The translations under genes and the position numbers were made by a program. The notes beneath the pieces were generated by a model. That model did no database searches, had not been told where the DNA came from, and saw nothing but the letters and a program-made list of their open reading frames with translations. From a virus, in the IMG/VR virus record IMGVR_UViG_3300037294_000405, positions 91,283-155,282 of that record: a DNA stretch of 64,000 bases, one strand, 5' to 3'. Positions 5,222 through 64,000 of the stretch are shown in pieces (positions within the stretch are counted from its first letter, which is position 1; every line of letters starts with the position of its first letter).

Positions 5222-8200
5222 ATGCCTAACAACACTGTTAGAATTAGGACTACACCTAATGGTACCGATAAATATTTAAAAGTAAAACTAGACCAAGAGT
5301 TTGACTTTATTGAGGTTCTTTCTCTAAAGATTTCCCAAGAAGAAGCGTATAGAAATTTTTGTTCTGATTACGGTGTGATTACTGGTAGAGTAATAATTAA
5401 CAGTGGTTTTGGTGTCCCAAATGCTAGGGTTAGCGTTTTCATACCTATTGATGGTATTGATATAAATGACCCAAATATTAAAGGGTTATATCCTTATGAG
5501 ATTATCACGGATAAAGATAGTGATGGTATTAGGTATAATGTACTACCTAGAACTTCTGAAACAGATAATAATTGTTTTACACCAATTGGTACATTTCCAA
5601 ATAAAAGAGAAGTATTAGATAATCCAGAAATGTTGGGTGTTTATTGTAAATATTATAAATTTACAACAACAACAAATCATGCTGGTGATTTTATGGTTTT
5701 TGGAGTACCAGTTGGTACATATACTCTACATGTTGATGCAGATATTTCCGACATAGGTATTGCGTCTCAAAGACCTTACGATAGCATTAGTCAAGGAACA
5801 CCGTTGAAATTTTTCGATTCACCAACAAAATTTAAGGGTGATACTAATTTGGATAAATTAATCCAAGTAAAATCATCTAATATTGGCGTAAATGTACAAC
5901 CTTTTTGGGGTGATATTGATGCGTGTGAAATTGGCATAACTAGGGTGGATATTGATTTAAACTACTCAATAAACCCATCTGCAATATTTATGGGTAGTGT
6001 ATTTGGTGACCAAGATAAAAATAGCGTTAATAAAAATTGTCAACCTAGAAAAGATTTAGGTAACCTTTGCGAACAAGTTGCAAATGAAGGCACTATTGAA
6101 ATGATTAGAGAAACACTTGATGGTACTATTGAAAGTTTTGATGTTGAGGGTGGAAGAGTTATTGACGAAAACGGTGCTTGGGCTTATCAAATTCCAATGA
6201 ATTTAGATTATATGGTTACTGATGAATTTGGTGCTTTGATATTATCTGATGACCCAAATAAAGGTATACCAACTAGAGCTAGTGTTCGATTTAAAATTGG
6301 TATGGACCAAACAGGTGGTGAAGGTAGACTTAGAACTAGAGCTAAATACTTAGTTCCAAACAACCCAAATAATCAAAACGAAATTGATTATGAATTTGGT
6401 GAAAAAACTAAAAAAAGTAGTTTTAGGGATTTATATTGGAATAAAATTTATTCAGTGAGTAATTTCATTTCTAGATTCCAACAGATAACACCATTTAATT
6501 CTGGTGGTTCACGCACTAGAAACATGATGGGTATTAAAGATGTTGATGCCTGTGCTGGTGATAAAACACCGTTTCCTTTTAATAGGGTAGGGAGTCAAAC
6601 ATCACCTATTTTTTTTATTATTTGTTTGATTATTAAAATCATAGGTTTTTTGATTTATGTAATGAATGCACTTATTATACCTTTAATTAATTTGGTTTTA
6701 AAAGTTGTAAATCTTTTAATTAAAGCATGGAATTCTTTGATGAAACCTTTATGTGAAGCTAGTAAAAAAACAATATTAGGTGTTAAAATTTTTGGTTTTT
6801 TAGGTTTTACTTGTAAATTAATTATTGACCCAATTAAATACATACCTTGTATTTTTATTAAATGCCCAACAGATGATAATCCATCTACTTTTGCCCCTGG
6901 GTGTAAAAAAGGTGGTTTAGACGGTGGTGAGGCTTTTGATTCTTTAGTTGACCAAGGTAACACACCAAAATACTATGATGGTGATAGTTTTGGTCATGGC
7001 GGTTTTGGTGATTTATGTGGTTTGGATGATTGTATAGCTTTTCAAATGGCGCAAAAATTAAACCTTTTTGAGTTTGATTTTTATAATGATTGGATAAATG
7101 GTTCATTATATACTTTTTTATTAAAATACAAAATTAGACGTAAAAACTCAGAAAAATTCTGCGAATATGATTGCGGTGATTTTAAAAACTCTACAGATAG
7201 TACAACTGTTGATGGAAACAAAAATGGTGTACCAGATAATGATTGTAGGACTAGTCATTTATTAGATACGTGTTTTAAAGGTGATAGCGAGGACCAACAA
7301 TATTCAAGTAGAAATGTTTTACTTAGAGAAGGTTTAATCAAAAAGAAAAACGATGAGTTCTTTTATGCTGCATCAACACATAACGCTAGTTTTAAGTTAT
7401 TCGCTACAGATATTATTAATTTAGGTGCGGTGTTTAATTGCGACTGGCAAGGCGTACCAAAAGTGCAAGAATATTTAATACCTACAACATATAAAATAGC
7501 ACCAGCTATTCAAGAAATTGCAGCGGATAACACAACAGTGTTAACTACTGGGCAATGTGATATTGATGGAAACACACTTGGTTTGTTTTTTAGTATAAAT
7601 TGTTTAGGGTTACATGTAAATACTAGGCAATGTATGAACCTTAGACATTTATGTGAGTTTGGTGTTGAAATTGACGAATATAGGGGTGTTGGTAATGAAA
7701 CAGATGGTGTGATTGGGTTAAGGGACTTAGATGCTGACGATGCTGACAGACCAAAATGGTTTAGAGATGTTTTCTTAGGGTTAAATTCAACAGTTAATTC
7801 ATGGAATTTACAATTACCTTATACCAGTAATTTTAATTTAGGTGATGCTGGTATATATGATTTTACTAGTCCAGTTCAAAATGGACAGGATTATGTTAAT
7901 TTTAGAAATTATTCGATGGGTAACGGGTCTGTTGGTGAAAATAGTTTTGGTCAACCAAAACACTCATATTATTTTTACTTTGGGATACTTCCTGGGAAAA
8001 GTGGGTTAGATGTTATGAACCAAAGATTTTTTACCGCTTGCGCAACAAAAACTGATTTGGAATTTGTGATTCAAACGTCTACAACACCAACTACAACTAA
8101 TACCACAACAAACGGTACGGTAACATTCACCTTTATAGGCGGTGATGCACCATTTACCGCTACAACTAGTGGGCCTAATGGTTATACTAACGTAACAATC

Positions 8201-9535
8201 GTTGGTCAAAATAACACACAACCAACTGGAACTTTAACTAACCTACCAATTGGTATTTATACAATAACTGGTAACGATAACTTTGGTTCGCCCGTAACGC
8301 AAACATTTATAATTTCTGGACCACCACCATTATCGGTTGATGCTTTAGTTAGTCAAGACTGCACAACAGCCGCTGCTTCTAATGGTGAAATAACAATCTC
8401 GTCAATTATTGGTGGTGTTGGTAGTGTTTATACTTATACTCTTTATAATAGTAATGGTGGTGTTGCTAGTGGTCCGCTTAATATCACTTCTGTACCACAT
8501 GTTATACAAGGTCTGGCTGTGGACACTAGTTTAAACACAACTTTTCCTTTATTTACTGGGCATGGTTATACAATGACGGTAACCGATGGTTTTGAAACGG
8601 TGTATTTAGTTAATTTAGTTTTAAATGGTGCAACACCAATTACTATAACACCTACTGTTACACAAATATTATGTTATGGTCAAAATACGGGTATTATAGA
8701 TATAGATATTAATGGTGGTACACCAACATATTCAGTGAATACAACATCACCTAACGGTTACGTTGGTGGAGGTTTAAATTTGACTAATTTATCTGCTGAC
8801 ACATACACTACAGAAGTGGTTGACGCTATGGGTACGCAATCTTTTTCGACTAATGTATTAACGTATTTGAATCCATTTATGGAAATAGAACCAGCTTCAC
8901 AACAAGTTTTAGAAAAACAGTGTGACCCAAATAATTACCATATTAAGTTATTTGTTACCAGCCCTTATACTGCTGGTTCAAGTGTTTATTTAGATTATGC
9001 TAAAGATTCAGAAGAAGACCCATCTGGAAACCCTATTTGGTACCCATTAGTTTTAAATAATTATATTAATTCTACAACACCATTTGAAATTGTTTTACCT
9101 AGTACTACTATTACCCAGTCGATTATTTTTAGAATGACTAATGCTGCTAAAACATGTTTTAGTGAAGAAATAGAAATATTGTTAAACGAAATTAAACTAC
9201 CACCAAACTTGTTAAGTATTAACACTACAGGTGTTAACACACCTATACAATTAATAGGGGCAAATTTAGTTAAGTTTAAGTTTAATGTTAGTCATTTATT
9301 GTTAGGGCAAACAATAAGAGCACCTTATACTGTAAGTTATTCAGTTAAAGGGATTAATTCACTAGGTATGTTGGTTATAAACCCATCAACATTACCAGTA
9401 ATAAATACAAATCAGCAAGAAATAATTGGAAACGTACCACAACCATTTGGCCAACCAGCAACAACAGTGATTGTTACGATAAGTATAACCGACAATGTAG
9501 GTTGCGTTTCAAATACTATTAATATTTCTACATAA
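5222..9535 (+). CDS. Large Cys-rich virion structural protein with C-terminal SprB-like beta repeats
   Basis: 1437 aa ORF in the baseplate block. Carboxypeptidase-regulatory-like GDFMVFGVPVGTYTLHVD; SprB-like C..NTG.I.I.I.GGTP.Y and NL..GxYT repeats; one hydrophobic segment. Confidence 0.65.
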   Translation: MPNNTVRIRTTPNGTDKYLKVKLDQEFDFIEVLSLKISQEEAYRNFCSDYGVITGRVIINSGFGVPNARVSVFIPIDGIDINDPNIKGLYPYEIITDKDSDGIRYNVLPRTSETDNNCFTPIGTFPNKREVLDNPEMLGVYCKYYKFTTTTNHAGDFMVFGVPVGTYTLHVDADISDIGIASQRPYDSISQGTPLKFFDSPTKFKGDTNLDKLIQVKSSNIGVNVQPFWGDIDACEIGITRVDIDLNYSINPSAIFMGSVFGDQDKNSVNKNCQPRKDLGNLCEQVANEGTIEMIRETLDGTIESFDVEGGRVIDENGAWAYQIPMNLDYMVTDEFGALILSDDPNKGIPTRASVRFKIGMDQTGGEGRLRTRAKYLVPNNPNNQNEIDYEFGEKTKKSSFRDLYWNKIYSVSNFISRFQQITPFNSGGSRTRNMMGIKDVDACAGDKTPFPFNRVGSQTSPIFFIICLIIKIIGFLIYVMNALIIPLINLVLKVVNLLIKAWNSLMKPLCEASKKTILGVKIFGFLGFTCKLIIDPIKYIPCIFIKCPTDDNPSTFAPGCKKGGLDGGEAFDSLVDQGNTPKYYDGDSFGHGGFGDLCGLDDCIAFQMAQKLNLFEFDFYNDWINGSLYTFLLKYKIRRKNSEKFCEYDCGDFKNSTDSTTVDGNKNGVPDNDCRTSHLLDTCFKGDSEDQQYSSRNVLLREGLIKKKNDEFFYAASTHNASFKLFATDIINLGAVFNCDWQGVPKVQEYLIPTTYKIAPAIQEIAADNTTVLTTGQCDIDGNTLGLFFSINCLGLHVNTRQCMNLRHLCEFGVEIDEYRGVGNETDGVIGLRDLDADDADRPKWFRDVFLGLNSTVNSWNLQLPYTSNFNLGDAGIYDFTSPVQNGQDYVNFRNYSMGNGSVGENSFGQPKHSYYFYFGILPGKSGLDVMNQRFFTACATKTDLEFVIQTSTTPTTTNTTTNGTVTFTFIGGDAPFTATTSGPNGYTNVTIVGQNNTQPTGTLTNLPIGIYTITGNDNFGSPVTQTFIISGPPPLSVDALVSQDCTTAAASNGEITISSIIGGVGSVYTYTLYNSNGGVASGPLNITSVPHVIQGLAVDTSLNTTFPLFTGHGYTMTVTDGFETVYLVNLVLNGATPITITPTVTQILCYGQNTGIIDIDINGGTPTYSVNTTSPNGYVGGGLNLTNLSADTYTTEVVDAMGTQSFSTNVLTYLNPFMEIEPASQQVLEKQCDPNNYHIKLFVTSPYTAGSSVYLDYAKDSEEDPSGNPIWYPLVLNNYINSTTPFEIVLPSTTITQSIIFRMTNAAKTCFSEEIEILLNEIKLPPNLLSINTTGVNTPIQLIGANLVKFKFNVSHLLLGQTIRAPYTVSYSVKGINSLGMLVINPSTLPVINTNQQEIIGNVPQPFGQPATTVIVTISITDNVGCVSNTINIST

Positions 9536-9560
9536 TGAAGATAAAAAATATAAATAAATA

Positions 9561-11372
9561 ATGGGTACTGATAGAATAATAAAAAGACTTGGCGTTGAAA
9601 AATCTAAATTAGCTACAAATACTGACGCTTTTTTAAAAATTAGTATTGAAGGTAATGAAAGGTTATTACCCACCAATGAAATTGATAGAATAGTCAATAT
9701 TGCTGATAGGTTTAATGTCGAAAGACAACGAAGTAAATATTATCGATTAATCGGTACAATAAACCCTTTAATTAGTAATCCTTTATTTAATTTGAATGAC
9801 CCATTATTATTAGATAAAAATACATTGGCTGGGTTTAATAATTTAGATTTTTTAGATTGGTCGTACCCAAAAGACGGTGATGTTAATGATGATGGTGATT
9901 TTACATATGCTAAATCGATTAAGTATTATTTAAAAGAAAGAGATGGTTGGTTTGGTTATTTTGACCCAGACATTACAAAATCAAGTTTATGTGGTTATTA
10001 TGATATGGAACCAAAAAGAGAACGTTTTTCTTTTTTACCAGATATCTCACCATACCATTCTCCCTCTAGTCAACCAGTTAAAAATTGGGAGTTAGTGGTA
10101 ACCTACCCAAAGTTAAGTGATAAAACACATAAATTGGTTAATGGTGGTTTATTGATAGTCGAAACGCAAACAACAGTAGTTTCAACTAGAGCAATGACAG
10201 CTATTGGTATGCCTTGTTTACATAACCTATCGATTGGTGATACGGTTAGGATAAGTGGGACTAATGGTTATAATGGTGACCACGAAGTGGTTACTTTAGG
10301 TTTAAGTAACGGTGATTACAAAGATTATTATTTTGTGATTGATGTTCCAAATACTGGGACGATAAATAACCTATCTAGAATTAAAAAACTAGTAAATGGT
10401 GTTGAGTCAGAATATTATTTTAGAAAATTTAGAAAAATTAAAACTAGAGCTACAGCTGTTATTGAAACTGATGATTATGAAACATACCAAGTTGGGTTCA
10501 GTGAAAACTTTTTTAACGACCAAATAACTCAATATGTTTTTAATGAAGATATTGATGTTAGTGATTTAACAGATAATTTAGGTAGACCACTTAGTGAAAT
10601 TTATTTGACAATAATTAAAACTGACAGTAATAATTTATTTGGTAAGGTCTCTTCTGGTATTGAAACACCTTTTATTAATCGTTTAAACACTAGTAATATA
10701 AACCCTTATTTGTTAGATATTCCAGCGATTAATAAAATACACAACGGTGCCCCATTGCCTTTTCAATCACATACACCATTAGAAAACAACGTTAAAATTA
10801 CTGACAACAATGGATTACCAAGTAATATTGATTATTATGGTGATTTAGTTGAATACAATATTGAAACATTAAATGAAATAATTTTAGCAACTGTTTCTCA
10901 TAGATTTAACACAATAAGCAGAGAAACACCAGCAACGATTAATTATGTTTTATCAACACCAACAGACGTTAATGGTCAACCAACATATGCTCAGACCAAT
11001 TTGGGGCCTAGACAAGAAGGGTACCATTATCAAGCACATCACCAAATTAAAATTAGAGAATTTTCTAACTACGTTGAAGAAGGTGATGAATTTACTGAAG
11101 GTATGCCAGATTACGTTGTAAATATGGGTGATGGTAGGTATTTATGGAGAGACTTATTAGATATTGGTTTCAATCAAACAGATGAAAGACCATTGAACTA
11201 CCCATTTTTAAATGGTAGTCATTATATGTACCAAAATCATTGTTTTTATTTAAGAAGACAAGACCAATTTTCTTTATGGAACCTCTACTATAGTAAGTTC
11301 CCAGCTGACCCAGTTGGTGAAAGAATAACAGATAATTTTACAGTAAATACAGCCAATCCAGATGTTTGTTAA
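9561..11372 (+). CDS. Putative virion structural protein
   Basis: 603 aa ORF with the same codon bias, within the structural operon. Confidence 0.65.
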   Translation: MGTDRIIKRLGVEKSKLATNTDAFLKISIEGNERLLPTNEIDRIVNIADRFNVERQRSKYYRLIGTINPLISNPLFNLNDPLLLDKNTLAGFNNLDFLDWSYPKDGDVNDDGDFTYAKSIKYYLKERDGWFGYFDPDITKSSLCGYYDMEPKRERFSFLPDISPYHSPSSQPVKNWELVVTYPKLSDKTHKLVNGGLLIVETQTTVVSTRAMTAIGMPCLHNLSIGDTVRISGTNGYNGDHEVVTLGLSNGDYKDYYFVIDVPNTGTINNLSRIKKLVNGVESEYYFRKFRKIKTRATAVIETDDYETYQVGFSENFFNDQITQYVFNEDIDVSDLTDNLGRPLSEIYLTIIKTDSNNLFGKVSSGIETPFINRLNTSNINPYLLDIPAINKIHNGAPLPFQSHTPLENNVKITDNNGLPSNIDYYGDLVEYNIETLNEIILATVSHRFNTISRETPATINYVLSTPTDVNGQPTYAQTNLGPRQEGYHYQAHHQIKIREFSNYVEEGDEFTEGMPDYVVNMGDGRYLWRDLLDIGFNQTDERPLNYPFLNGSHYMYQNHCFYLRRQDQFSLWNLYYSKFPADPVGERITDNFTVNTANPDVC

Positions 11373-12216
11373 TAAATTTAAAATAAACCTATCAACACTA
11401 GCTAGTGGTTCAACAGCTACCACTATTAATTTCCCTATTGATATGGAATACCAAATTGTGGATAATACCGAACTTATTGAAGAAGTTTTTGTTAAAACTG
11501 AAATAGAAAATTCAATTAACCCAATATTAGATTATGATAGAATTAGGTTTTTACCTTTAGATTTACAAAATAATCAAATAAATAAAATAATTTATGATGT
11601 TAAGTTGTTCGGAACAGCAAATAACTATGTTGATTATTATGGTCTTATTGGTTTTAATAATAATGATATAAAATTTAGGAAAAATAGTTTTAAAGAAACA
11701 TTTTTAAATCTATCTTTTTATGATAATGATAACCCATTAACACAAAAACTAGTAACTTTTTTAACTCTTTATGCTAATTTGAATAAAACTGATTATTTAC
11801 CTATTTCGACAACAAATGGTGTGCCTGGACAACCAGTTGATGTTTCACAAATTCCAGTTAATTTTGTGGTAGAAAACCCATTAATTAACCCTAGAGGTTT
11901 TGCTGAAGGATTTCATTTATATGATTACAAAGATAGCTTAGATATCGGTGAATCAAAACATATTTATATGAGAGCTAGTTTTAAAAACGCAAAGACTGGT
12001 AAATCGGTAAACCTTATGGTTAAAAATATCGCACAACCAATCGATAAATTAGTTCATGAATTATATACAAGATATAGAATGACTAGAACATCTACGGGTT
12101 ATTATTATGAAATAGATAATGTATACCATGGTAATACAGGTACTAGTAGGGCTAATAACGTAACTTATAATGGTAATACTTGTAAAGTTACATTGTATGA
12201 AATAAAAGCAACATAA
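11362..12216 (+). CDS. Putative virion structural protein
   Basis: 284 aa ORF overlapping both neighbours (translational coupling). Confidence 0.65.
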   Translation: MFVNKFKINLSTLASGSTATTINFPIDMEYQIVDNTELIEEVFVKTEIENSINPILDYDRIRFLPLDLQNNQINKIIYDVKLFGTANNYVDYYGLIGFNNNDIKFRKNSFKETFLNLSFYDNDNPLTQKLVTFLTLYANLNKTDYLPISTTNGVPGQPVDVSQIPVNFVVENPLINPRGFAEGFHLYDYKDSLDIGESKHIYMRASFKNAKTGKSVNLMVKNIAQPIDKLVHELYTRYRMTRTSTGYYYEIDNVYHGNTGTSRANNVTYNGNTCKVTLYEIKAT

Positions 12217-13088
12217 TGGAAATAATTAAAAGAAAAATATTGTTAGAGGATAGTATTGATAGAGGTAATGGTAGCGATAAATGGGGTACTATTACAGCAT
12301 CTACTTTTTATTTGAATATTTTATTAACTCAAAATATTGATGATATGGGGTTATTTACTGATTCAGAATTTATCTCACAAGACAAGGAAAATACATCTGT
12401 TGATTATGGTGTTTTAATTTCTAAATTAAACACGTTAGGTTATTCTTTTCCTTTTATGCTTGGAGCTGTACCTCAAACATTAACAAATTTGTATGGTACC
12501 GATAAATTAACTGTTAGGTTACCAAATTCAAATGAATCGGATTATTATATTTTTGGTAATTTACCAATTACTGGTAAAACCGATAGTAAAATTGAAGACG
12601 TAAAATCTTACAAAAGTAACGACCAATTTAGGATTAATTTTAACACAGCGACAGAAACTTATGAAAACTACAATGGTTTAACGGTTATGGGTGTTGATAG
12701 AATAAAATCAATGGGTGAACCTAAGATTTATGTTTTTGATACTGAAAACGATGTTAATTTAGGTACTATAAATCAAACAACAGGTATTCAATACATGGAT
12801 TATAGCGGTAATACTGAAATAAATATTAATGGTGTTTTAGAATTTATACCTTTAAATACTTTTAGGTTTATAGGTGAAGGTTGGAATAAAACAAATGTTT
12901 CTTTATCTGCATTAACCAAAGAAGAATATTTATTTGGTATTATTTCTCCACCAGAAGTACAAAGTGATGTATTTATAGATAGAGGTTCAACCAGTGTGTT
13001 GGATATGCATTTAAAATTATCTGAAATAGGTAATATTTCAGAGTTAACTAGATACGGAAACGGTTATTATAAATTAAATAAACAATAA
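12216..13088 (+). CDS. Putative virion structural protein
   Basis: 290 aa ORF, TAATG-coupled to the upstream gene. Confidence 0.65.
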   Translation: MEIIKRKILLEDSIDRGNGSDKWGTITASTFYLNILLTQNIDDMGLFTDSEFISQDKENTSVDYGVLISKLNTLGYSFPFMLGAVPQTLTNLYGTDKLTVRLPNSNESDYYIFGNLPITGKTDSKIEDVKSYKSNDQFRINFNTATETYENYNGLTVMGVDRIKSMGEPKIYVFDTENDVNLGTINQTTGIQYMDYSGNTEININGVLEFIPLNTFRFIGEGWNKTNVSLSALTKEEYLFGIISPPEVQSDVFIDRGSTSVLDMHLKLSEIGNISELTRYGNGYYKLNKQ

Positions 13089-13226
13089 AAATATACTTTT
13101 AAAAAAAAATGTTATATTAAATAAAAACAAAACAATACGAAAAAATAAATTGGGTTAATAAAATGTAAACCAGTTAAAATTTTAGTAGTTGATAAAAATA
13201 ACAAAATTATTAATAAACAAATATAA

Positions 13227-14165
13227 ATGTATTTTGCAACAGGAACATATGGAGTAGTTAGACCAGCAGATATATCACCAGAAGACGTAGAGATATTTTA
13301 TCATTTTACACCATCTAGAGATACAATCGGTGATGAAAAATTAAATAAATTAGACCCATCAGAGGTTTTAATAAAAATAGATAATCCAAACAAAGGGCAA
13401 TCAAATGTAACTGGTTTTGAGGTTTTTGGTGGTATGTATACACTTAAATTACCTGTAGCCACATTCGGTGTTAAAGGATTTTACACTATAATTATAAAAC
13501 CAATTGAAATAAGAACATCAATAGTTGATGTTGGTGTTTTATCAGCTTATCCAGATATCAAAGGTTTGGTATTTGATATGTCAAACATCCCAGCAAATTT
13601 TTTAAATAGATTTGAAAATAACGGTTTGGTTGGTTATAGGGTTGAATATTTAAACACTGATGGTTCAGCTAATTCGGTTACTGACGCTAAGATAAATAAT
13701 TTTTTTAGAGTTATCACTTCAAATAATAGAGCTGAACCAGTTAATCAAAACCTTACTAATTCCAACCAAAAAGCTATTAGATATAGGTTTAATGACAATT
13801 CAACACTTACTTTTTGTACTGTATCACCAGCTTCAGCCTCCAATGTAAAACCAAATGCGTTACCTTTTATCGGGCAACCAAACCAAAAAGTTATTATAAC
13901 AAATACTTACTTTAACCCAGTTATGCTTGAAGTTGAGATGGTAGAACATGACATAGAAACAATCGCATTTGCGTTATTTGGTAATCAAAGCAAAAGTCTT
14001 GATGATGGGATTTATACTATATACAATTTCAATAACGATATTTACAAACAATACAACTTATATGAAATAAAAGATAAGTTTACTGGTAAACCATTATTTG
14101 AAGTTAGAGAGGAACGTGCTAGTATAGATTTTAACAAAACATTTAATAATATAACAACAATCTAA
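13227..14165 (+). CDS. Putative virion structural protein
   Basis: 312 aa ORF in the structural block. Confidence 0.65.
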   Translation: MYFATGTYGVVRPADISPEDVEIFYHFTPSRDTIGDEKLNKLDPSEVLIKIDNPNKGQSNVTGFEVFGGMYTLKLPVATFGVKGFYTIIIKPIEIRTSIVDVGVLSAYPDIKGLVFDMSNIPANFLNRFENNGLVGYRVEYLNTDGSANSVTDAKINNFFRVITSNNRAEPVNQNLTNSNQKAIRYRFNDNSTLTFCTVSPASASNVKPNALPFIGQPNQKVIITNTYFNPVMLEVEMVEHDIETIAFALFGNQSKSLDDGIYTIYNFNNDIYKQYNLYEIKDKFTGKPLFEVREERASIDFNKTFNNITTI

Positions 14166-55140: not shown

Positions 55141-55626
55141 ATGAGTACATTATTAAATGCTATGCAAACAAAAAATTCGTTAACTGAAAACGGGATGTCT
55201 ACTAATTCTTCTTCGCTGAACCACTGTGTTGATTTATTCTTCCAAATTGGAGCTATGAGAGGTCAAGATAAACAACGTTTAATAAATGTGTTTACCAAAG
55301 CGTTTAGTGAAGATACATTGACTGCAATGCGTCTTTTATTCTGGGCACGTGACGTAAGAGGTGGTGCTGGAGAACGTAAAGTTTTCAGAGACATCATCGA
55401 ATACTTAGCTGAAAACAGAACGGAAACGTTACGTAAAAACTTGAACTTGATTAATGAGTTTGGTCGTTGGGATGACTTATTAGTACTAGTAGGTACACCT
55501 TTGGAGTCTGATGCTTTAGCGTTAATTGCTACGGCTTTAAACGCTAAAAATAAAGCGCATGAAATATTAAATAATCTTGATTCATTAAGTGAAGAAGAAT
55601 GCGGTGAAATATTAATAAATTTTTAA
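55141..55626 (+). CDS. DUF2828 (TROVE/Ro60-like) protein, N-terminal part
   Basis: TENG, DLFF, FWARDVRGGAGER..FR, EFGRWDDL. Confidence 0.88.
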   Translation: MSTLLNAMQTKNSLTENGMSTNSSSLNHCVDLFFQIGAMRGQDKQRLINVFTKAFSEDTLTAMRLLFWARDVRGGAGERKVFRDIIEYLAENRTETLRKNLNLINEFGRWDDLLVLVGTPLESDALALIATALNAKNKAHEILNNLDSLSEEECGEILINF

Positions 55627-55632
55627 ATAAAA

Positions 55633-56742
55633 ATGAAAAATATCATGACAAATAGAGAAAAACTTAGAAATTTATGTAATCAAAAGATAATGACAGGGAA
55701 ACTTACTGCTAAATGGATGCCACGTCCAAATGTGGATAACCGTGAAAAGAAAAGATGGGCAACCGCTTTGAGAAAATATTTAGGGTTAACACCAAAAGAG
55801 TACCGTAAATTGTTAGCTGAAAACTCTAACACCGTTGAGCAATTGATGTGTGCTAAAGAGTGGTCTAAAATCGAGTATTCTAAATTGCCTTCAAAAGCGA
55901 TGAGTGATTTGATGAAAGCGTTCTCAAAAAATGACTTGGAACGTTTCCAAACTTACTTAACTTCGGTTGAAAAAGGGGAAGCGAAAATTAACGCTGGTGC
56001 TGTGTACCCATACGACATCGTAAAAAACCTTAAACAAGGTAACGCCAAAGGTGCTAATGTACAATGGGATGCTTTACCTAACTTTATGGAGGGTAGTGCA
56101 GAAAGAGTACTTCCAGTTGTTGACGTTTCTGGGTCAATGGGAACTGCTGCGGGTGGAAACGCTAATGTAACTTGTATGGATGTTGCAATCTCTTTGGGGT
56201 TATATATTTCTGAAAGAAACGTTGGTCCATTCCAAGATGCTTTCGTAACGTTTTCTGAATATCCAACTCTTCAAATTCTTAAGGGTTCGTTGAACGAGAG
56301 ATACAATCAATTAGCGAGAGCTGATTGGGCAATGTCTACAAACTTAGAAGCGGTATTCAAGCTTGTGTTATCAAAAGCAAAAGCTTCGAATGTTTCTGAG
56401 GACGAGATGCCGACTATGATTCTTATCTTGTCAGATATGGAGTTCAATTCGGCAACCATGACCAATTACAGTAGCCAAGGTTCTTGGAACCCAACCGCTC
56501 AAAAGATGATTAGTACAATGTATGAAGATGCTGGGTACAAAATGCCTAACATCGTATATTGGAATATCCAATCTAGAGGTGATAACAACAAACCAGTTCA
56601 CTTCGATACGAATGGCACTGCTTTGGTATCTGGTTTTAGCCCAGCTTTACTTACTAACTTGTTAGGTGGTAAAGACATGACACCAATCTCAATGATGATG
56701 TCAGTTATTGACTCTGAACGTTACTCTGTAGTAACGGTTTAA
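55633..56742 (+). CDS. DUF2828 protein, C-terminal part with vWA domain
   Basis: AKWMPR, YRK, VEQLMC, MIDAS-like DVSGSM, TFS, ILSDMEF, YWN, VSGFS. Confidence 0.9.
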   Translation: MKNIMTNREKLRNLCNQKIMTGKLTAKWMPRPNVDNREKKRWATALRKYLGLTPKEYRKLLAENSNTVEQLMCAKEWSKIEYSKLPSKAMSDLMKAFSKNDLERFQTYLTSVEKGEAKINAGAVYPYDIVKNLKQGNAKGANVQWDALPNFMEGSAERVLPVVDVSGSMGTAAGGNANVTCMDVAISLGLYISERNVGPFQDAFVTFSEYPTLQILKGSLNERYNQLARADWAMSTNLEAVFKLVLSKAKASNVSEDEMPTMILILSDMEFNSATMTNYSSQGSWNPTAQKMISTMYEDAGYKMPNIVYWNIQSRGDNNKPVHFDTNGTALVSGFSPALLTNLLGGKDMTPISMMMSVIDSERYSVVTV

Positions 56743-56779
56743 TAAGGGTGGGGTAGGAAACTGCCCCGCAACTTATCTA

Positions 56780-56937
56780 ATACTAACTCAGCTAAAAGAT
56801 GTATGCAGCAAGCAAACAACAAAATTCAATTAGCTACATAGACAACCTAGGTGTACACGACCTATAACATTTTTTTTAATGTGTAAACCTTCTAACAGGG
56901 TTTGAAGTAAACACCCCCGCATCTTGTGAATTAGTAT
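56780..56937 (+). ncRNA. Candidate structured ncRNA with paired ends (copy 1)
   Basis: 5' atactaactca/aagatgt pairs with 3' gcatctt-g-tgaattagtat; ATGCAGCAA follows the stem; terminator immediately downstream. Confidence 0.6.
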
Positions 56938-56962
56938 AAAAAACCTCTTTATGGGGTTTTTT
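56938..56962 (+). terminator. Intrinsic terminator closing the DUF2828-ncRNA unit
   Basis: aaaaaacctc-tttat-gggg followed by T7. Confidence 0.7.
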
Positions 56963-61753: not shown

Positions 61754-61858
61754 TTGCATTTTATTAAAAATGTTCGTACCTTTGTAAAAACATTTAGAAT
61801 ATGTGAGTTTTTTAATCGGAACTCACATATTTATAAATAACAAGTTCTTTAATTTTAT
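61754..61858 (+). promoter_or_regulatory. tmRNA leader: host-type promoter, late motif and boxA-like element
   Basis: TTG-N20-TACCTTTG (61754-61784), ATATTTATA (61827), GTTCTTTAATTTTAT (61844-61858). Confidence 0.7.
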
Positions 61859-62216
61859 GGGGATACCACGGTATTGACTGAATATAGTCGTAAACTGTAA
61901 GCATGTAGTGCTAGATTGGAAGCACTTTAATCTGTCTATTAAAACAATGAATTGACAACGATTTTATCGTATCAGAAAATTTCCTTACTGAAGCTACATG
62001 TAGCTTCGCTGGAGAGGTAGCAGTAGCCTAATTATTGCAAATAGTGGTAAACCACTAGATAATGGTAGTCCATTGATGATGGTAATCCATGTGGTGAGAA
62101 GCTTAAATTTCACGGTAAAAGAGGTAGCAAAGATTGCCAGTTAATGAATTGGATAAACATGTAGAAAGCTTTTGAAGAATGTTCAACACAGGGGTTCGAT
62201 TCCCCTTATCTCCACC
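61859..62216 (+). ncRNA. ssrA: tmRNA
   Basis: Acceptor stem GGGGATA/TATCTCC-A with G3:U70; GG-TATTGAC D-loop analogue; T-arm GGGG-TTCGATT-CCCC; internal tag ORF ending AVA*; 358 nt. Confidence 0.93.
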
Positions 62217-62271
62217 TAAACTTTTTTGTACTTTTCAGTTTTCTGAGATATTTATTATTAAAGAAACTGAA

Positions 62272-62907
62272 ATGGCAAGAAAAGAAAAAACAATACATTA
62301 CATATATAAGACAACATGTAATATAACAGGACGATGGTACATCGGAATGCACTCAACAAATAATCTGGAAGATGGTTATATGGGTAGTGGTAAAATTCTT
62401 AGACATAGTATTAGGAAATATGGTGTTGAAAACCATACCAAAGAAATACTTGAATATCTTCCATCAAGGGAAGAATTGATTCTTAGAGAACAAAAAATTG
62501 TAAACAAAGAATTAATTGGTGATGGAAAATGTATGAACCTTAGAGAAGGTGGTGGTGGTTTCGGTGATGCGGAGCACCAACTAAAATGTTCAAAGGCTGG
62601 TAATGAAGCATTTTTAAAACGTTTTAAAACTGATAAATCATTAAGAATTGAAACATCAGAAAGAATGTCTTTTATTATGAGAAAAAAACATGCAAATAAT
62701 GAATTAAAATATGATAACTTTAAAGGTGAAAAACATTTAGATGAAACTAAACAAAAAATGTCTGAATCATCTAAATGTACTGGTGTCGGTGAAACAAATA
62801 GCCAATACGGTACTTGTTGGATAACCAAAGACAATGTGAATAAAAAAATTAAGAAAGAAGACTTTGAAACCTATCTAAATGAAGGTTGGGTCAAAGGAAG
62901 AAGTTAA
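62272..62907 (+). CDS. Seg-like GIY-YIG homing endonuclease
   Basis: YIYKTT...YIGMHST...DGYMGSG, RE, MNL..GG. ATG at 62272 preferred because the track's start lies inside the tmRNA. Confidence 0.88.
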   Translation: MARKEKTIHYIYKTTCNITGRWYIGMHSTNNLEDGYMGSGKILRHSIRKYGVENHTKEILEYLPSREELILREQKIVNKELIGDGKCMNLREGGGGFGDAEHQLKCSKAGNEAFLKRFKTDKSLRIETSERMSFIMRKKHANNELKYDNFKGEKHLDETKQKMSESSKCTGVGETNSQYGTCWITKDNVNKKIKKEDFETYLNEGWVKGRS

Positions 62908-63004
62908 CAATTATTGTTTATAACTACTGCCCCTTACCATGGATAACAGTAATAATATGCCTAATATAATCGCTTATATTAGGCATTTTCGTTTTATTTA
63001 GGAA

Positions 63005-63031
63005 TAAAAAAAGGACCCCGAAAGGTCCTTT
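63005..63031 (-). terminator. Terminator hairpin for the minus-strand microprotein (possibly bidirectional)
   Basis: A8-ggacc-ccgaaa-ggtcc-ttt. Confidence 0.7.
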
Positions 63032-63409: not shown

Positions 63410-63524
63410 AATATTTATGAAGACCTAAAAGAAATCAATGGGTGTGAATATCGTTGTTTTTATAGGGTTTTTGGTTGATTATATAGACCAAGTTAAAAAA
63501 AAATAAAAATAATTGAAAAAAAAC

Positions 63525-63588
63525 TTGACATAGAAGTAAATAATTCGTACCTTTGTGTATATTTATTTTAAAACGTTCTTAATTTTAT
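63525..63588 (+). promoter_or_regulatory. Stable-RNA-type leader: host promoter, late motif and boxA-like element
   Basis: TTG-N20-TACCTTTG (63525-63555), ATATTTAT, GTTCTTAATTTTAT (63575-63588); same order as before the tmRNA. Confidence 0.7.
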
Positions 63589-63597
63589 TAAAAAACA

Positions 63598-63886
63598 TTA
63601 TCTAAAAAAGATGGATTCTGCAACCAAAACAGACACAACTATGATTCTAACCAGTTTGTGTTAACAACTATAACCTTTGATGAAAAGGACTTGGACGTTG
63701 AGTAACCAACAGAGTAAGAAGAGGTGGAAAGGTTACCACTAAAAAAAATATCTACCGTCATTACCACCCCAATAGGTGCAAGTAGGATGTAGTCGAAGTA
63801 TAGTAGACTCTCGCCAAAGCGAAGCCGAAGACGTAAAAAGGGTTAATCCGCTGGGATGAAAAACGCAAAAAACCATCTTGAGATAA
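63598..63886 (+). ncRNA. Candidate structured ncRNA with paired ends (copy 2)
   Basis: ttatct-aaaa-aagatgg pairs with ccatctt-g-agataa; ATTCTGCAA follows the stem; GC-elevated with no credible ORF. Confidence 0.62.
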
Positions 63887-63967
63887 GATATTATGGGATA
63901 GGGTTATTATCTGGACAGTCTGAAAAAGACAGGGTATAAAATCTGGACAGTTCCAAAACACATTGAC

Positions 63968-64000
63968 TAAAGAATCTATTCAGCAATTAACAAAAAAAAA
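63968..64000 (+). ncRNA. 5' end of candidate ncRNA copy 3 (truncated by window)
   Basis: taaagaatct-ATTCAGCAA. Confidence 0.45.

What the first reader, a model, noticed from the sequence alone, without database searches (positions are those of the whole stretch)
63525..63886. Second ncRNA copy sits behind the same three-part leader as the tmRNA
Seen: both loci have host promoter, then ATATTTAT, then GTTCTT(T)AATTTTAT, then the RNA; I noticed the last motif only at these two places. Established: boxA-type elements mark stable-RNA operons. Inference: 63598 onward is an abundant RNA operon expressed early and late, independent support that the end-paired elements are real RNAs. The ~260-nt interior has several short hairpins (e.g. 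gtgg-aaaggtta-ccac, cgc-caaa-gcg) and is not tRNA-like by eye.
Basis: partly seen in the sequence, partly recalled or inferred. Interest (0 to 1): 0.72.

Follow-up and report, generated by a model that had tools for sequence, protein, structure and literature searches.

The report
Phage Y-RNA-like gene with boxA leader
This stretch of an uncultured lake phage encodes a real, folded, 289-base non-coding RNA that opens a small operon of stable RNAs, and it is probably a partner of the phage's own Ro60-like RNA-binding protein, from an RNA family that I found in neither Rfam nor the papers I could search.

Summary
Both 61859 (a true tmRNA) and 63598 lie behind a Bacteroidetes-type promoter, an ATATTTAT box and a GTTCTT(T)AA box. 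The GTTC box is kept in 28 of 35 relatives before this RNA and in 19 of 20 before the tmRNA. It is absent before tRNAs and fits the published BoxA consensus GYTCTTTAANA.

Bases 63598-63886 are a genuine structured RNA. I collected 39 distinct homologues. Five helices keep pairing through compensatory changes. No family was found in Rfam, and there is no ORF. Relatives' copies reach very high depth in lake metatranscriptomes.

In relatives the RNA is followed by two small RNAs with the same "handle" and by tRNA genes. It therefore opens a stable-RNA operon that this contig cuts off at 64000.

The handle is a terminal stem, an A-rich bulge, AAGAUGG/CCAUCUU, then UUCUGCAA. The RNA just downstream of the DUF2828 gene carries the same handle, and a model of that protein matches Ro60 structures best.

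My best reading is a large Y-RNA-like partner RNA with a nearly invariant cargo of about 110 nt and unknown role. Binding is inferred, not shown. This scan has reported the same handle-RNA and DUF2828 pairing before on other phage DNA.

The parts
63525..63555 (+). Host-type promoter: TTGACA, 17 nt, TACCTTTG (Bacteroidetes -7 box TAnnTTTG)
   Evidence: Read from the sequence. TTCGTACCTTTGT has 5 exact copies in the window; with up to 2 mismatches there are 10 matches against 3.0 expected, and 0 of 100 shuffles reach that. TAnnTTTG is kept in 25 of 35 relatives. The TAnnTTTG consensus is from my own knowledge.
63559..63566 (+). ATATTTAT box, a possible phage promoter element
   Evidence: 36 copies in the window against 18.7 expected. 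Many + strand copies lie 12-28 nt before start codons (my reading). Its function is inferred.
63575..63588 (+). BoxA-like leader box GTTCTTAATTTTAT (conserved core ACGTTCTT)
   Evidence: Conserved before RNA2 and before the tmRNA in relatives. It fits GYTCTTTAANA, with one T missing in this phage.
63598..63886 (+). RNA2, a 289-nt end-paired structured non-coding RNA
   Evidence: 39 distinct homologues. 15 pairs have changes on both sides against 8.2 in shuffles, with 0 of 500 shuffles as high. No Rfam match.
63598..63623 (+). 5' half of the handle: P0 TTATCT (63598-63603), A-rich bulge, P1 AAGATGG (63608-63614), motif ATTCTGCAA (63615-63623)
   Evidence: The bases T..C.GCAA are invariant in the 39 sequences.
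63873..63886 (+). 3' half of the handle: P1 CCATCTT (63873-63879), single G 63880, P0 AGATAA (63881-63886)
   Evidence: P1 is 98.5% paired and 5 of its 7 pairs have double changes. One P0 pair occurs as UA, AU and CG.
63756..63864 (+). Nearly invariant cargo domain. Helix Py is CGTC 63756-63759 with GACG 63830-63833. It encloses hairpins Pa (63765-63778), Pb (63791-63809) and Pc (63812-63821). Hairpin Pd (63846-63857) follows.
   Evidence: Py is kept in all 39 sequences with two independent compensatory variants, CATC/GATG and AGTC/GACT. Pb and Pd covary. Pa is invariant, but it was part of my search pattern.
63624..63755 (+). Variable region with lineage-specific hairpins, including GTGG 63724-63727 with CCAC 63736-63739
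   Evidence: It carries insertions and deletions of varied length; the hairpin covaries.
63970..64000 (+). Head of the next handle RNA (AAGAATC + TATTCAGCAA), cut off by the end of the contig
   Evidence: Relatives have the complete 50-60-nt unit with the complementary AGATTCT or TGATTCT.
61754..62217 (+). Comparison locus: promoter, conserved hairpin, ATATTTAT, BoxA-like GTTCTTTAATTTTAT (61844-61858), tmRNA (61859-62217)
55141..56945 (+). Ro60-like gene (DUF2828 + DUF7788, split here into 55141-55626 and 55633-56742) and RNA1 (about 56775-56945), which carries the same handle (AAGATGT + ATGCAGCAA ... GCATCTT)
   Evidence: Pfam. The structure model of the unsplit relative has Ro60/TROVE as its top 13 PDB matches. 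Handle.

Best explanation
Bases 63598-63886 encode a stable, structured 289-nt RNA (RNA2). It is the first gene of a phage stable-RNA operon. A host-type promoter drives the operon, possibly together with a phage ATATTTAT element. The operon starts with a BoxA-like box. That box would let the long untranslated transcript escape Rho-dependent termination, as in rRNA operons. The neighbouring tmRNA gene uses the same leader design. In relatives the transcript runs on into two small RNAs with the same handle and into tRNA genes. The units must therefore be cut out of a common precursor.

RNA2 belongs to a family of RNAs that share one handle: a terminal stem, an A-rich bulge opposite a single G, a second stem AAGAUGG/CCAUCUU, then UUCUGCAA. 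Each member carries a different interior. One member lies directly behind the phage's Ro60-like gene (DUF2828/vWA). The handle is therefore most likely that protein's binding site, and RNA2 is a large Y-RNA-like partner. Its nearly invariant cargo of about 110 nt would be the working end, acting as a tether or decoy for a conserved partner that is still unknown.

Shown here: the RNA structure, its conservation, the operon order in relatives, the Ro60-like fold and the shared handle. Inferred: protein binding, BoxA function, processing and the role of the cargo.
For: - RNA structure: 39 distinct homologues. 15 of 35 pairs have changes on both sides against 8.2 in shuffles, with 0 of 500 shuffles as high. 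89% of cells are paired against 32-43% when the partners are slid. Py is kept in all 39 sequences with two independent compensatory variants.
- No known family: Rfam finds nothing, even at E up to 10 on short stretches. ARAGORN finds nothing. There is no ORF.
- Operon: in relatives RNA2 is followed by handle RNAs 3 and 4 and by tRNA-Met, sometimes with further tRNAs. The next protein gene is roughly 250 to 1,200 nt further on.
- Leader: the box is conserved and specific to these two RNA genes. It matches BoxA GYTCTTTAANA at 10 of 11 positions before the tmRNA, including the critical C4.
- Expression: in the RNA libraries X19 and X21, contigs of RNA2 relatives have depths of 136-296 and 7,985-13,541. 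The tmRNA-like contigs in the same runs have depths of 37 and 26. One 258-nt RNA contig begins exactly at the first base of P0.
- Protein: DUF2828 plus DUF7788. The model of the 483-aa relative has mean pLDDT 71. Its top 13 PDB matches are Ro60/TROVE proteins over about 500 columns, with E-values from 3e-8 to 9e-5.
- Shared handle: RNA1 and RNA2 here, and RNA1 to RNA4 in L002, L028 and L012 (RNA2 to RNA4 in L003), all carry it.
- Precedent: phage Ro60 with two Y-like RNAs is published (PMC12135203).
Against: - No binding data exist.
- RNA2 lies 6.9 kb from the Ro60-like gene, not within 4 kb.
- The handle has no similarity to the Ro60-binding motifs GGUCCGA or GNCGAAN0-1G. RNA2 has no tRNA-like domain and is about twice the size of known Y RNAs.
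- The Ro60-like gene is split in this phage.
- BoxA was defined in gamma-proteobacteria, whereas this host is probably from the Bacteroidota. The window copy lacks one T, and GYTCTTTAA is not enriched in the window.
- The box lies at a fixed distance from the tmRNA 5' end, which would also suit a processing signal.
- The RNA evidence comes from assembled contigs of relatives, not from reads of this phage.
- Conservation of Pa is partly an effect of my search pattern.
Confidence: 0.6

Rival explanations
1. RNA2 is an independent functional RNA, such as a regulator, scaffold or decoy for a translation factor, and does not work with the Ro60-like protein. On this reading the shared handle is a processing signal. 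A host or phage nuclease would use it to cut each unit out of the polycistronic precursor, as tRNAs punctuate transcripts.
For: Handle RNAs lie in tandem with tRNAs in one unit, with no terminators between them. An RNA contig starts exactly at P0. The cargo is far more conserved than the handle stems. RNA2 is 6.9 kb from the Ro60-like gene, which is split here.
Against: The same handle sits directly behind the Ro60-like gene in every relative with enough flank. A processing signal alone would not need the invariant single-stranded UUCUGCAA. The two readings are also not mutually exclusive.
Confidence: 0.2
2. The shared GTTCTT(T)AA box is not a BoxA. It could be part of a phage-specific promoter or initially transcribed region downstream of ATATTTAT. 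It could also be a 5' leader signal for maturation, for example by RNase P or RNase E.
For: The box lies 14-15 nt before the tmRNA 5' end in 18 of 20 relatives, and a fixed 18-20 nt after the -7 box before RNA2. ATATTTAT is enriched and lies before genes. Two relatives keep the box before the tmRNA with no host-type promoter nearby.
Against: Its distance to the RNA2 body varies from 2 to 17 nt, which suits neither a promoter nor a cleavage ruler for RNA2. It matches the BoxA consensus at 10 of 11 positions. It is absent from the short suppressor-tRNA genes that have their own promoters, which would not need antitermination.
Confidence: 0.3
3. The region is a 5' untranslated leader or riboswitch of a downstream protein gene, or degenerate non-functional spacer DNA.
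For: The contig ends 114 nt after the RNA, so what follows in this phage itself is unknown.
Against: In relatives other RNA genes follow at varied distances. The ends pair to close the element. The core is nearly invariant among phages whose ClpP proteins are down to about 75% identical. Relatives' copies accumulate in RNA libraries.
Confidence: 0.03

Closest known systems
Ro60 (Rsr) with Y RNAs: bacterial and phage YrlA/YrlB (Chen et al. 2014, PMC4201824) and Thermus phage phiLo Ro60 with Yrl1/Yrl2 (PMC12135203)
   Same: A ring-type Ro60-fold protein (TROVE-like helical repeats plus vWA) is encoded in the same genome and on the same strand. There are several RNAs per genome, and their 5' and 3' ends pair into a stem with a bulge. 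Each RNA is modular: a constant stem module and a variable effector module. A phage precedent exists.
   Different: No Rfam match. The motifs GNCGAAN0-1G and GGUCCGA are absent from the 5' strand. There is no T-arm or D-arm mimic. RNA2 is 289 nt against 80-130 nt. It lies 6.9 kb from the protein gene. The protein is Pfam DUF2828/DUF7788, not TROVE, with no sequence-level match to solved Ro60.
BoxA antitermination leaders of rRNA operons and lambdoid nut sites (consensus GYTCTTTAANA, bioRxiv 10.1101/091223)
   Same: The sequence matches at 10 of 11 positions before the tmRNA. It lies in the transcribed leader of long untranslated RNA genes. Before the tmRNA a conserved hairpin lies upstream of it, as boxB does in rrn leaders (the rrn order is from my own knowledge).
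   Different: The genes are phage tmRNA and Y-like RNA genes, not rRNA. The host is probably from the Bacteroidota, whose BoxA I could not check. One T is missing in the RNA2 copy. Nus factor binding is untested.
Stable RNAs C and D (species 1 and 2) in the phage T4 tRNA gene cluster (from my own knowledge)
   Same: They are phage-encoded stable RNAs of unknown function, co-transcribed with tRNA genes and processed from a common precursor.
   Different: I know of no sequence or structural relation. T4 has no Ro60-like gene that I know of, and no shared handle.
Class I RNAs of dictyostelid amoebae (PMC7919456)
   Same: The architecture is the same: a short terminal stem whose pairing but not sequence is kept, a conserved single-stranded motif directly 3' of the 5' strand, a variable remainder, and high abundance.
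   Different: They are eukaryotic and 42-65 nt long. The paper's text does not give the motif letters, so the resemblance to ..CAGCAA rests on my memory and on earlier notes of this scan. I did not test it.

Membership tests
Y RNA / YrlA (Rfam family; Chen et al. 2014) | The 5' and 3' ends pair into a long stem | tested here: met
   P0 and P1 are kept, with compensatory changes, across 39 sequences.
Y RNA / YrlA (Rfam family; Chen et al. 2014) | Match to the Rfam covariance model | tested here: not met
   No Y RNA or YrlA match at the gathering score or at E up to 10.
Y RNA / YrlA (Rfam family; Chen et al. 2014) | GNCGAAN0-1G (vertebrates: GGUCCGA) near the 5' end, in the stem | tested here: not met
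   The motif is absent from 63598-63623. GCCGAAG occurs, but inside the cargo at 63824-63830.
Y RNA / YrlA (Rfam family; Chen et al. 2014) | tRNA-like domain (T and D arms) | tested here: not met
   ARAGORN finds nothing. There is no tRNA-clan match at E up to 10.
Y RNA / YrlA (Rfam family; Chen et al. 2014) | Within 4 kb of the Ro60 gene and on the same strand; size 80-130 nt | tested here: not met
   Same strand, but 6.9 kb downstream and 289 nt long. RNA1 at about 56775-56945 does meet the distance rule.
Y RNA / YrlA (Rfam family; Chen et al. 2014) | Bound by the Ro60 protein | not testable with these tools
   This needs EMSA or co-purification.
Handle RNAs travelling with DUF2828 Ro60-like genes (seen by this scan; I found no publication) | A terminal stem with covariation, directly followed by a single-stranded ..Y-N-GCAA motif | tested here: met
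   AAGATGG + ATTCTGCAA ... CCATCTT. GCAA is invariant in 39 sequences.
Handle RNAs travelling with DUF2828 Ro60-like genes (seen by this scan; I found no publication) | A DUF2828 gene with a Ro60-like fold in the same genome, with a handle RNA beside it | tested here: met
   The only bacterial-assembly contig that holds RNA2 also holds DUF2828.
BoxA (Nus-factor antitermination element) | Sequence GYTCTTTAANA with C at position 4, in the transcribed leader | tested here: inconclusive
   The tmRNA leader has GTTCTTTAATT (10 of 11). The RNA2 leader has GTTCTTAATTT (one T missing). Relatives have GTTCTTTAA[CAT]T. The consensus comes from gamma-proteobacteria.
BoxA (Nus-factor antitermination element) | Binds NusB-NusE and suppresses Rho termination | not testable with these tools
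   This needs biochemistry or a reporter assay.
rRNA look-alike cargo (16S helix 44 base, or 23S parts) | Significant similarity of sequence or structure to rRNA | tested here: inconclusive
   There is no SSU or LSU match in Rfam. nhmmer gives E = 10 (16S) and 1.9 (23S). A chained alignment of the window's cargo falls on 16S 1395-1496 with z = 2.2 (5 of 200 shuffles as high). Two other family members give z = 1.1 and -0.5. 23S gives z near 0.

The most novel reading that the evidence does not exclude
The invariant cargo of RNA2 would be a shrunken look-alike of the ribosome's decoding site, the base of 16S helix 44. In this reading CGUCA..ACC plus GGUG corresponds to 16S 1404-1412 and 1488-1491. 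GAAGACGUAAAAAGG corresponds to 1491-1505, paired as in the ribosome. The look-alike is mounted on a Ro60-type handle. The phage would use it as a decoy or tether for something that recognises the decoding centre. Candidates are a defence nuclease that cuts rRNA, or a translation or rescue factor. The gene neighbourhood fits: tmRNA, ClpP, DnaJ and, in relatives, release-factor-like genes.
Probability: 0.07. Interest if true: 0.85.

Novelty: new variant of a known kind. Interest (0 to 1): 0.62.

Why it matters
If the reading is right, a large group of freshwater phages of Bacteroidota-type hosts carries its own Ro60/Y-RNA-like particle. Its protein (DUF2828) is not recognised as Ro60 by sequence, and its RNAs are in no catalogue. 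More than 7,900 close relatives of the protein were found in public data. RNA2-type transcripts are among the deepest contigs laid from lake metatranscriptomes. This would therefore explain an abundant, unannotated environmental RNA.

RNA2 is the largest member of its family in this genome. Its cargo of about 110 nt is almost unchanged among phages whose ClpP proteins are down to about 75% identical. That points to a conserved and so far unknown target.

The BoxA-like leader shared with the tmRNA gene would be a case of a phage using rRNA-style antitermination for its own stable RNAs. It also gives a simple sequence mark for finding such operons.

Tried and rejected
- Known RNA families: Rfam at gathering score and at E up to 10 on 3 kb, 321 nt and 125 nt gave nothing for RNA2. 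ARAGORN found nothing.
- RNase P RNA, SRP RNA, 6S RNA and group I intron were considered by eye. I dropped them because the supposed P4-like piece is a variable hairpin and no model matches.
- GenBank phages: no DNA match in distant mode.
- Solved structures by sequence: no Ro60 match for either half of the DUF2828 protein. Only the fold search found Ro60.
Metagenome loci could not be used as handles.
- 23S look-alike (GTPase centre, 1127-1151, the helix 68/69 area): resemblances seen by eye and leads from earlier notes. nhmmer gave E = 1.9 and the chained alignment gave z near 0. Rejected for this RNA.
- 16S look-alike: marginal. Kept only as the novel case.
- A helix between GUUCUGC and GUAGGAU, proposed by RNAalifold, was dropped. 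In sister RNAs the same bases form a local hairpin instead, and the proposed helix would cross Py, which covariation supports.
- Protein-gene stretches between the two RNAs had no cover in the RNA runs. I do not use this, because those runs hold relatives and protein genes diverge faster.
- Paper searches for DUF2828 found only plant and tardigrade mentions. One review could not be fetched.

Full report
**Setting.** The window is the last 64 kb of a single 155,282-bp virus contig with 30.8% G+C. The contig starts inside an intein-bearing gene, so it is not closed and whatever follows base 64000 is missing. The genes are phage-like: a ClpP-type protease, a GIY-YIG homing endonuclease and SbcC. 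The recurring promoter has TTG at -33/-35, a 17-nt spacer and TACCTTTG. TTCGTACCTTTGT has 5 exact copies; with up to 2 mismatches there are 10 matches against 3.0 expected. From my own knowledge, this fits the Bacteroidetes -7 box TAnnTTTG.

**The observation.** Bases 61859-62217 are a true tmRNA (Rfam, 68 bits), although ARAGORN misses it.

Inside this window the short motifs are not rare. GYTCTTTAA occurs 3 times against 2.9 expected. ATATTTAT is enriched twofold (36 against 18.7, 0 of 100 shuffles) and lies mostly on the + strand. By my reading, it often lies 12-28 nt before start codons.

What makes the shared leader more than chance is conservation. I fetched 80 related loci through ClpP and 48 more through DNA patterns.

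- GYTC[TA]T is present in 28 of 35 distinct regions upstream of RNA2, 18-20 nt after the -7 box.
- It is present in 19 of 20 distinct regions upstream of the tmRNA, 14-15 nt before the first G.
- Only 11% of random windows of the same length have it.
- No tRNA gene of eight relatives has it directly upstream.

**The RNA is real.** There is no + strand ORF of 30 aa or more from 63410 to 64000. A profile search found full-length homologues, and 39 distinct sequences were aligned. I counted pairs on the helices I proposed.

- 89% of cells pair, against 32-43% when the partners are slid.
- 15 of 35 pairs have changes on both sides, against 8.2 in shuffles, and 0 of 500 shuffles reach that.
- P1 (AAGAUGG/CCAUCUU) is 98.5% paired with five covarying pairs.
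- One P0 pair is found as U-A, A-U and C-G.
- Hairpins Pb and Pd covary.

MAFFT misaligned helix Py, so I read it directly from the sequences. CGUC/GACG is kept in all 39, with two independent compensatory variants: CAUC/GAUG and AGUC/GACU. Hairpin Pa is invariant, but it was part of my search pattern, so that says little.

The anatomy is as follows.

- **Handle:** P0, an A-rich bulge opposite one invariant G, P1, then single-stranded UUCUGCAA.
- **Variable region:** lineage-specific hairpins.
- **Cargo:** about 110 nt, nearly invariant, from 63756 to 63864.

No Rfam family matches even at E = 10.

**Context in relatives.** The gene order is ClpP, tmRNA, a small membrane protein, a protein of about 70-90 aa, then RNA2. 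After RNA2 come a GGACAG-repeat element, a handle RNA of 50-60 nt (RNA3), tRNA-Met (sometimes with further tRNAs) and another small handle RNA (RNA4). Only then do protein genes resume.

The head AAGAATC+TATTCAGCAA at 63970-63986 is therefore RNA3, cut off by the contig end. Relatives have the predicted complement. RNA2 is not a 5' UTR of a protein gene. This contig holds no tRNA at all, which fits a missing piece after 64000.

**Expression.** Only assembled contigs of relatives were available, so this evidence is of moderate weight. In two metatranscriptome runs, contigs matching the RNA2 cargo have depths of 136-296 (X19) and 7,985-13,541 (X21). The tmRNA-like contigs in the same runs have depths of 37 and 26. 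Their flanks identify the deepest ones as the divergent L122/L095 subgroup of RNA2. One 258-nt RNA contig begins exactly at the first base of P0.

**Link to a Ro60-like protein.** The gene at 55141-56742 is DUF2828 plus DUF7788, split in two here. Relatives have an unsplit gene of 475-484 aa, and more than 7,900 close relatives exist in public data. A model of the L002 protein has mean pLDDT 71. It shows helical repeats followed by an alpha/beta domain. Its top 13 PDB matches are all Ro60/TROVE proteins, aligned over about 500 columns with E-values from 3e-8 to 9e-5: Thermus phage phiLo, Deinococcus Rsr, Xenopus and human. Sequence search alone finds no Ro60.

Directly behind this gene lies RNA1, which has the same handle: stem, bulge, AAGAUGU/GCAUCUU, then AUGCAGCAA. 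Its interior is a different one, a covarying pseudoknot.

In other relatives, RNAs at the RNA2 position keep the handle but carry an unrelated cargo. The handle is thus the constant module and the cargo can be exchanged. Y RNAs are built the same way, and phage Ro60 with two Y-like RNAs is published. RNA2 still fails the formal YrlA tests (motif, tRNA-like domain, size, distance, model). I therefore call it Y-RNA-like in how it works, not a member of that family.

**The leader.** The box fits the BoxA consensus GYTCTTTAANA. Before the tmRNA the match is 10 of 11 positions, including the critical C4. A conserved, covarying hairpin lies upstream of it. From my own knowledge, this recalls the boxB-boxA order of rrn leaders.

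Long untranslated transcripts are natural Rho targets, so antitermination makes sense here. The short suppressor-tRNA genes with their own promoters lack the box. This remains inference: the host's own BoxA is unknown to me, and a role in processing or initiation is not excluded.

**Cargo.** By eye the cargo resembles the base of 16S helix 44 and also several 23S sites. Objective tests do not support this. There is no SSU or LSU match in Rfam. nhmmer gives E = 10 and 1.9. A gap-tolerant alignment places the window's cargo on 16S 1395-1496 with z = 2.2 (5 of 200 shuffles as high), but two other family members give z = 1.1 and -0.5, and 23S gives nothing. I keep the 16S idea only as a low-odds lead.

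**Earlier notes of this scan.** The scan reported the same handle RNAs with DUF2828 in other phages, including a look-alike of this 280-nt RNA. I tested the Ro60-like fold, the shared handle and the operon order myself. Their rRNA-mimic reading did not hold for this RNA on 23S.

**Verdict.** The element is a new, large variant of a Y-RNA-like partner RNA. Protein binding and the role of the cargo remain unproven.

Noticed in passing
window 62272-62907 (with 62214-63007): A GIY-YIG homing endonuclease gene sits directly after the 3' end of the tmRNA. Contigs of relatives join 62214/62215 to 62898/63007 and skip it, so it looks like a mobile insertion at the tmRNA end.
   Followed up: partly
window 63887-63969; L002:12767-12833: Between RNA2 and RNA3 lies a conserved element with two or three GGACAG repeats around a small covarying hairpin. 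The hairpin is GUCU-GAAAA-AGAC here, and GCC-GCAA-GGC or GCC-AAAA-GGC in relatives. Its function is unknown.
   Followed up: partly
L002:15039-15111, L025:14050-14121, L028:14760-14833, L007:16276-16351, L012:14658-14729: Relatives carry a tRNA with anticodon CTA (an amber suppressor, which ARAGORN calls Pyl). Each has its own host-type promoter right before it. This hints at TAG read-through or recoding in this phage group. This contig has no tRNA at all.
   Followed up: no
L028:12521-12922; L007:12973-13515: In some relatives, small proteins with a GGQ-type release-factor or peptidyl-tRNA-hydrolase-like motif lie just after the RNA operon. This adds to the cluster of tmRNA, ClpP and DnaJ.
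   Followed up: no
genome contig bases 1-2500 (outside the window): The contig begins inside an intein with a LAGLIDADG endonuclease, and a second intein follows in the same host gene. The N-terminal part of that gene is missing, so the assembly is incomplete.
   Followed up: partly
L001:5934-6010: In the closest relative (ClpP 98% identical) the DUF2828 gene is unsplit. However, the RNA1 behind it lacks its 5' handle and cargo; only the 3' part (GGGTTTGAAG...GCATCTTG) remains. This may be a deletion or an assembly effect.
   Followed up: no
window 61799-61830: A conserved hairpin lies in the tmRNA leader between the promoter and the BoxA-like box. It covaries in relatives (GUGAG/CUCAC against GUGGG/CCCAC) and resembles a boxB-like element.
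   Followed up: partly
L023, L013, L024, L015, L012, L016, L004 (for example L012:12024-12169): Other relatives have, at the RNA2 position, an RNA with the same handle but a different conserved cargo. That cargo has hairpins whose loops read UUGUGAGG and UAAACGNNAGU. Its identity is unknown.
   Followed up: partly
L002:12940-13030 and L026/L012, upstream of the second tRNA-Met: Stretches with a T-arm-like GGTTCGAGTCC, and a conserved block GGCCCAGTAAAGCCTCTTACCTTAGTGGTAACG, lie between the called tRNAs. ARAGORN's list has no gene there. They may be odd tRNA-like RNAs.
   Followed up: no
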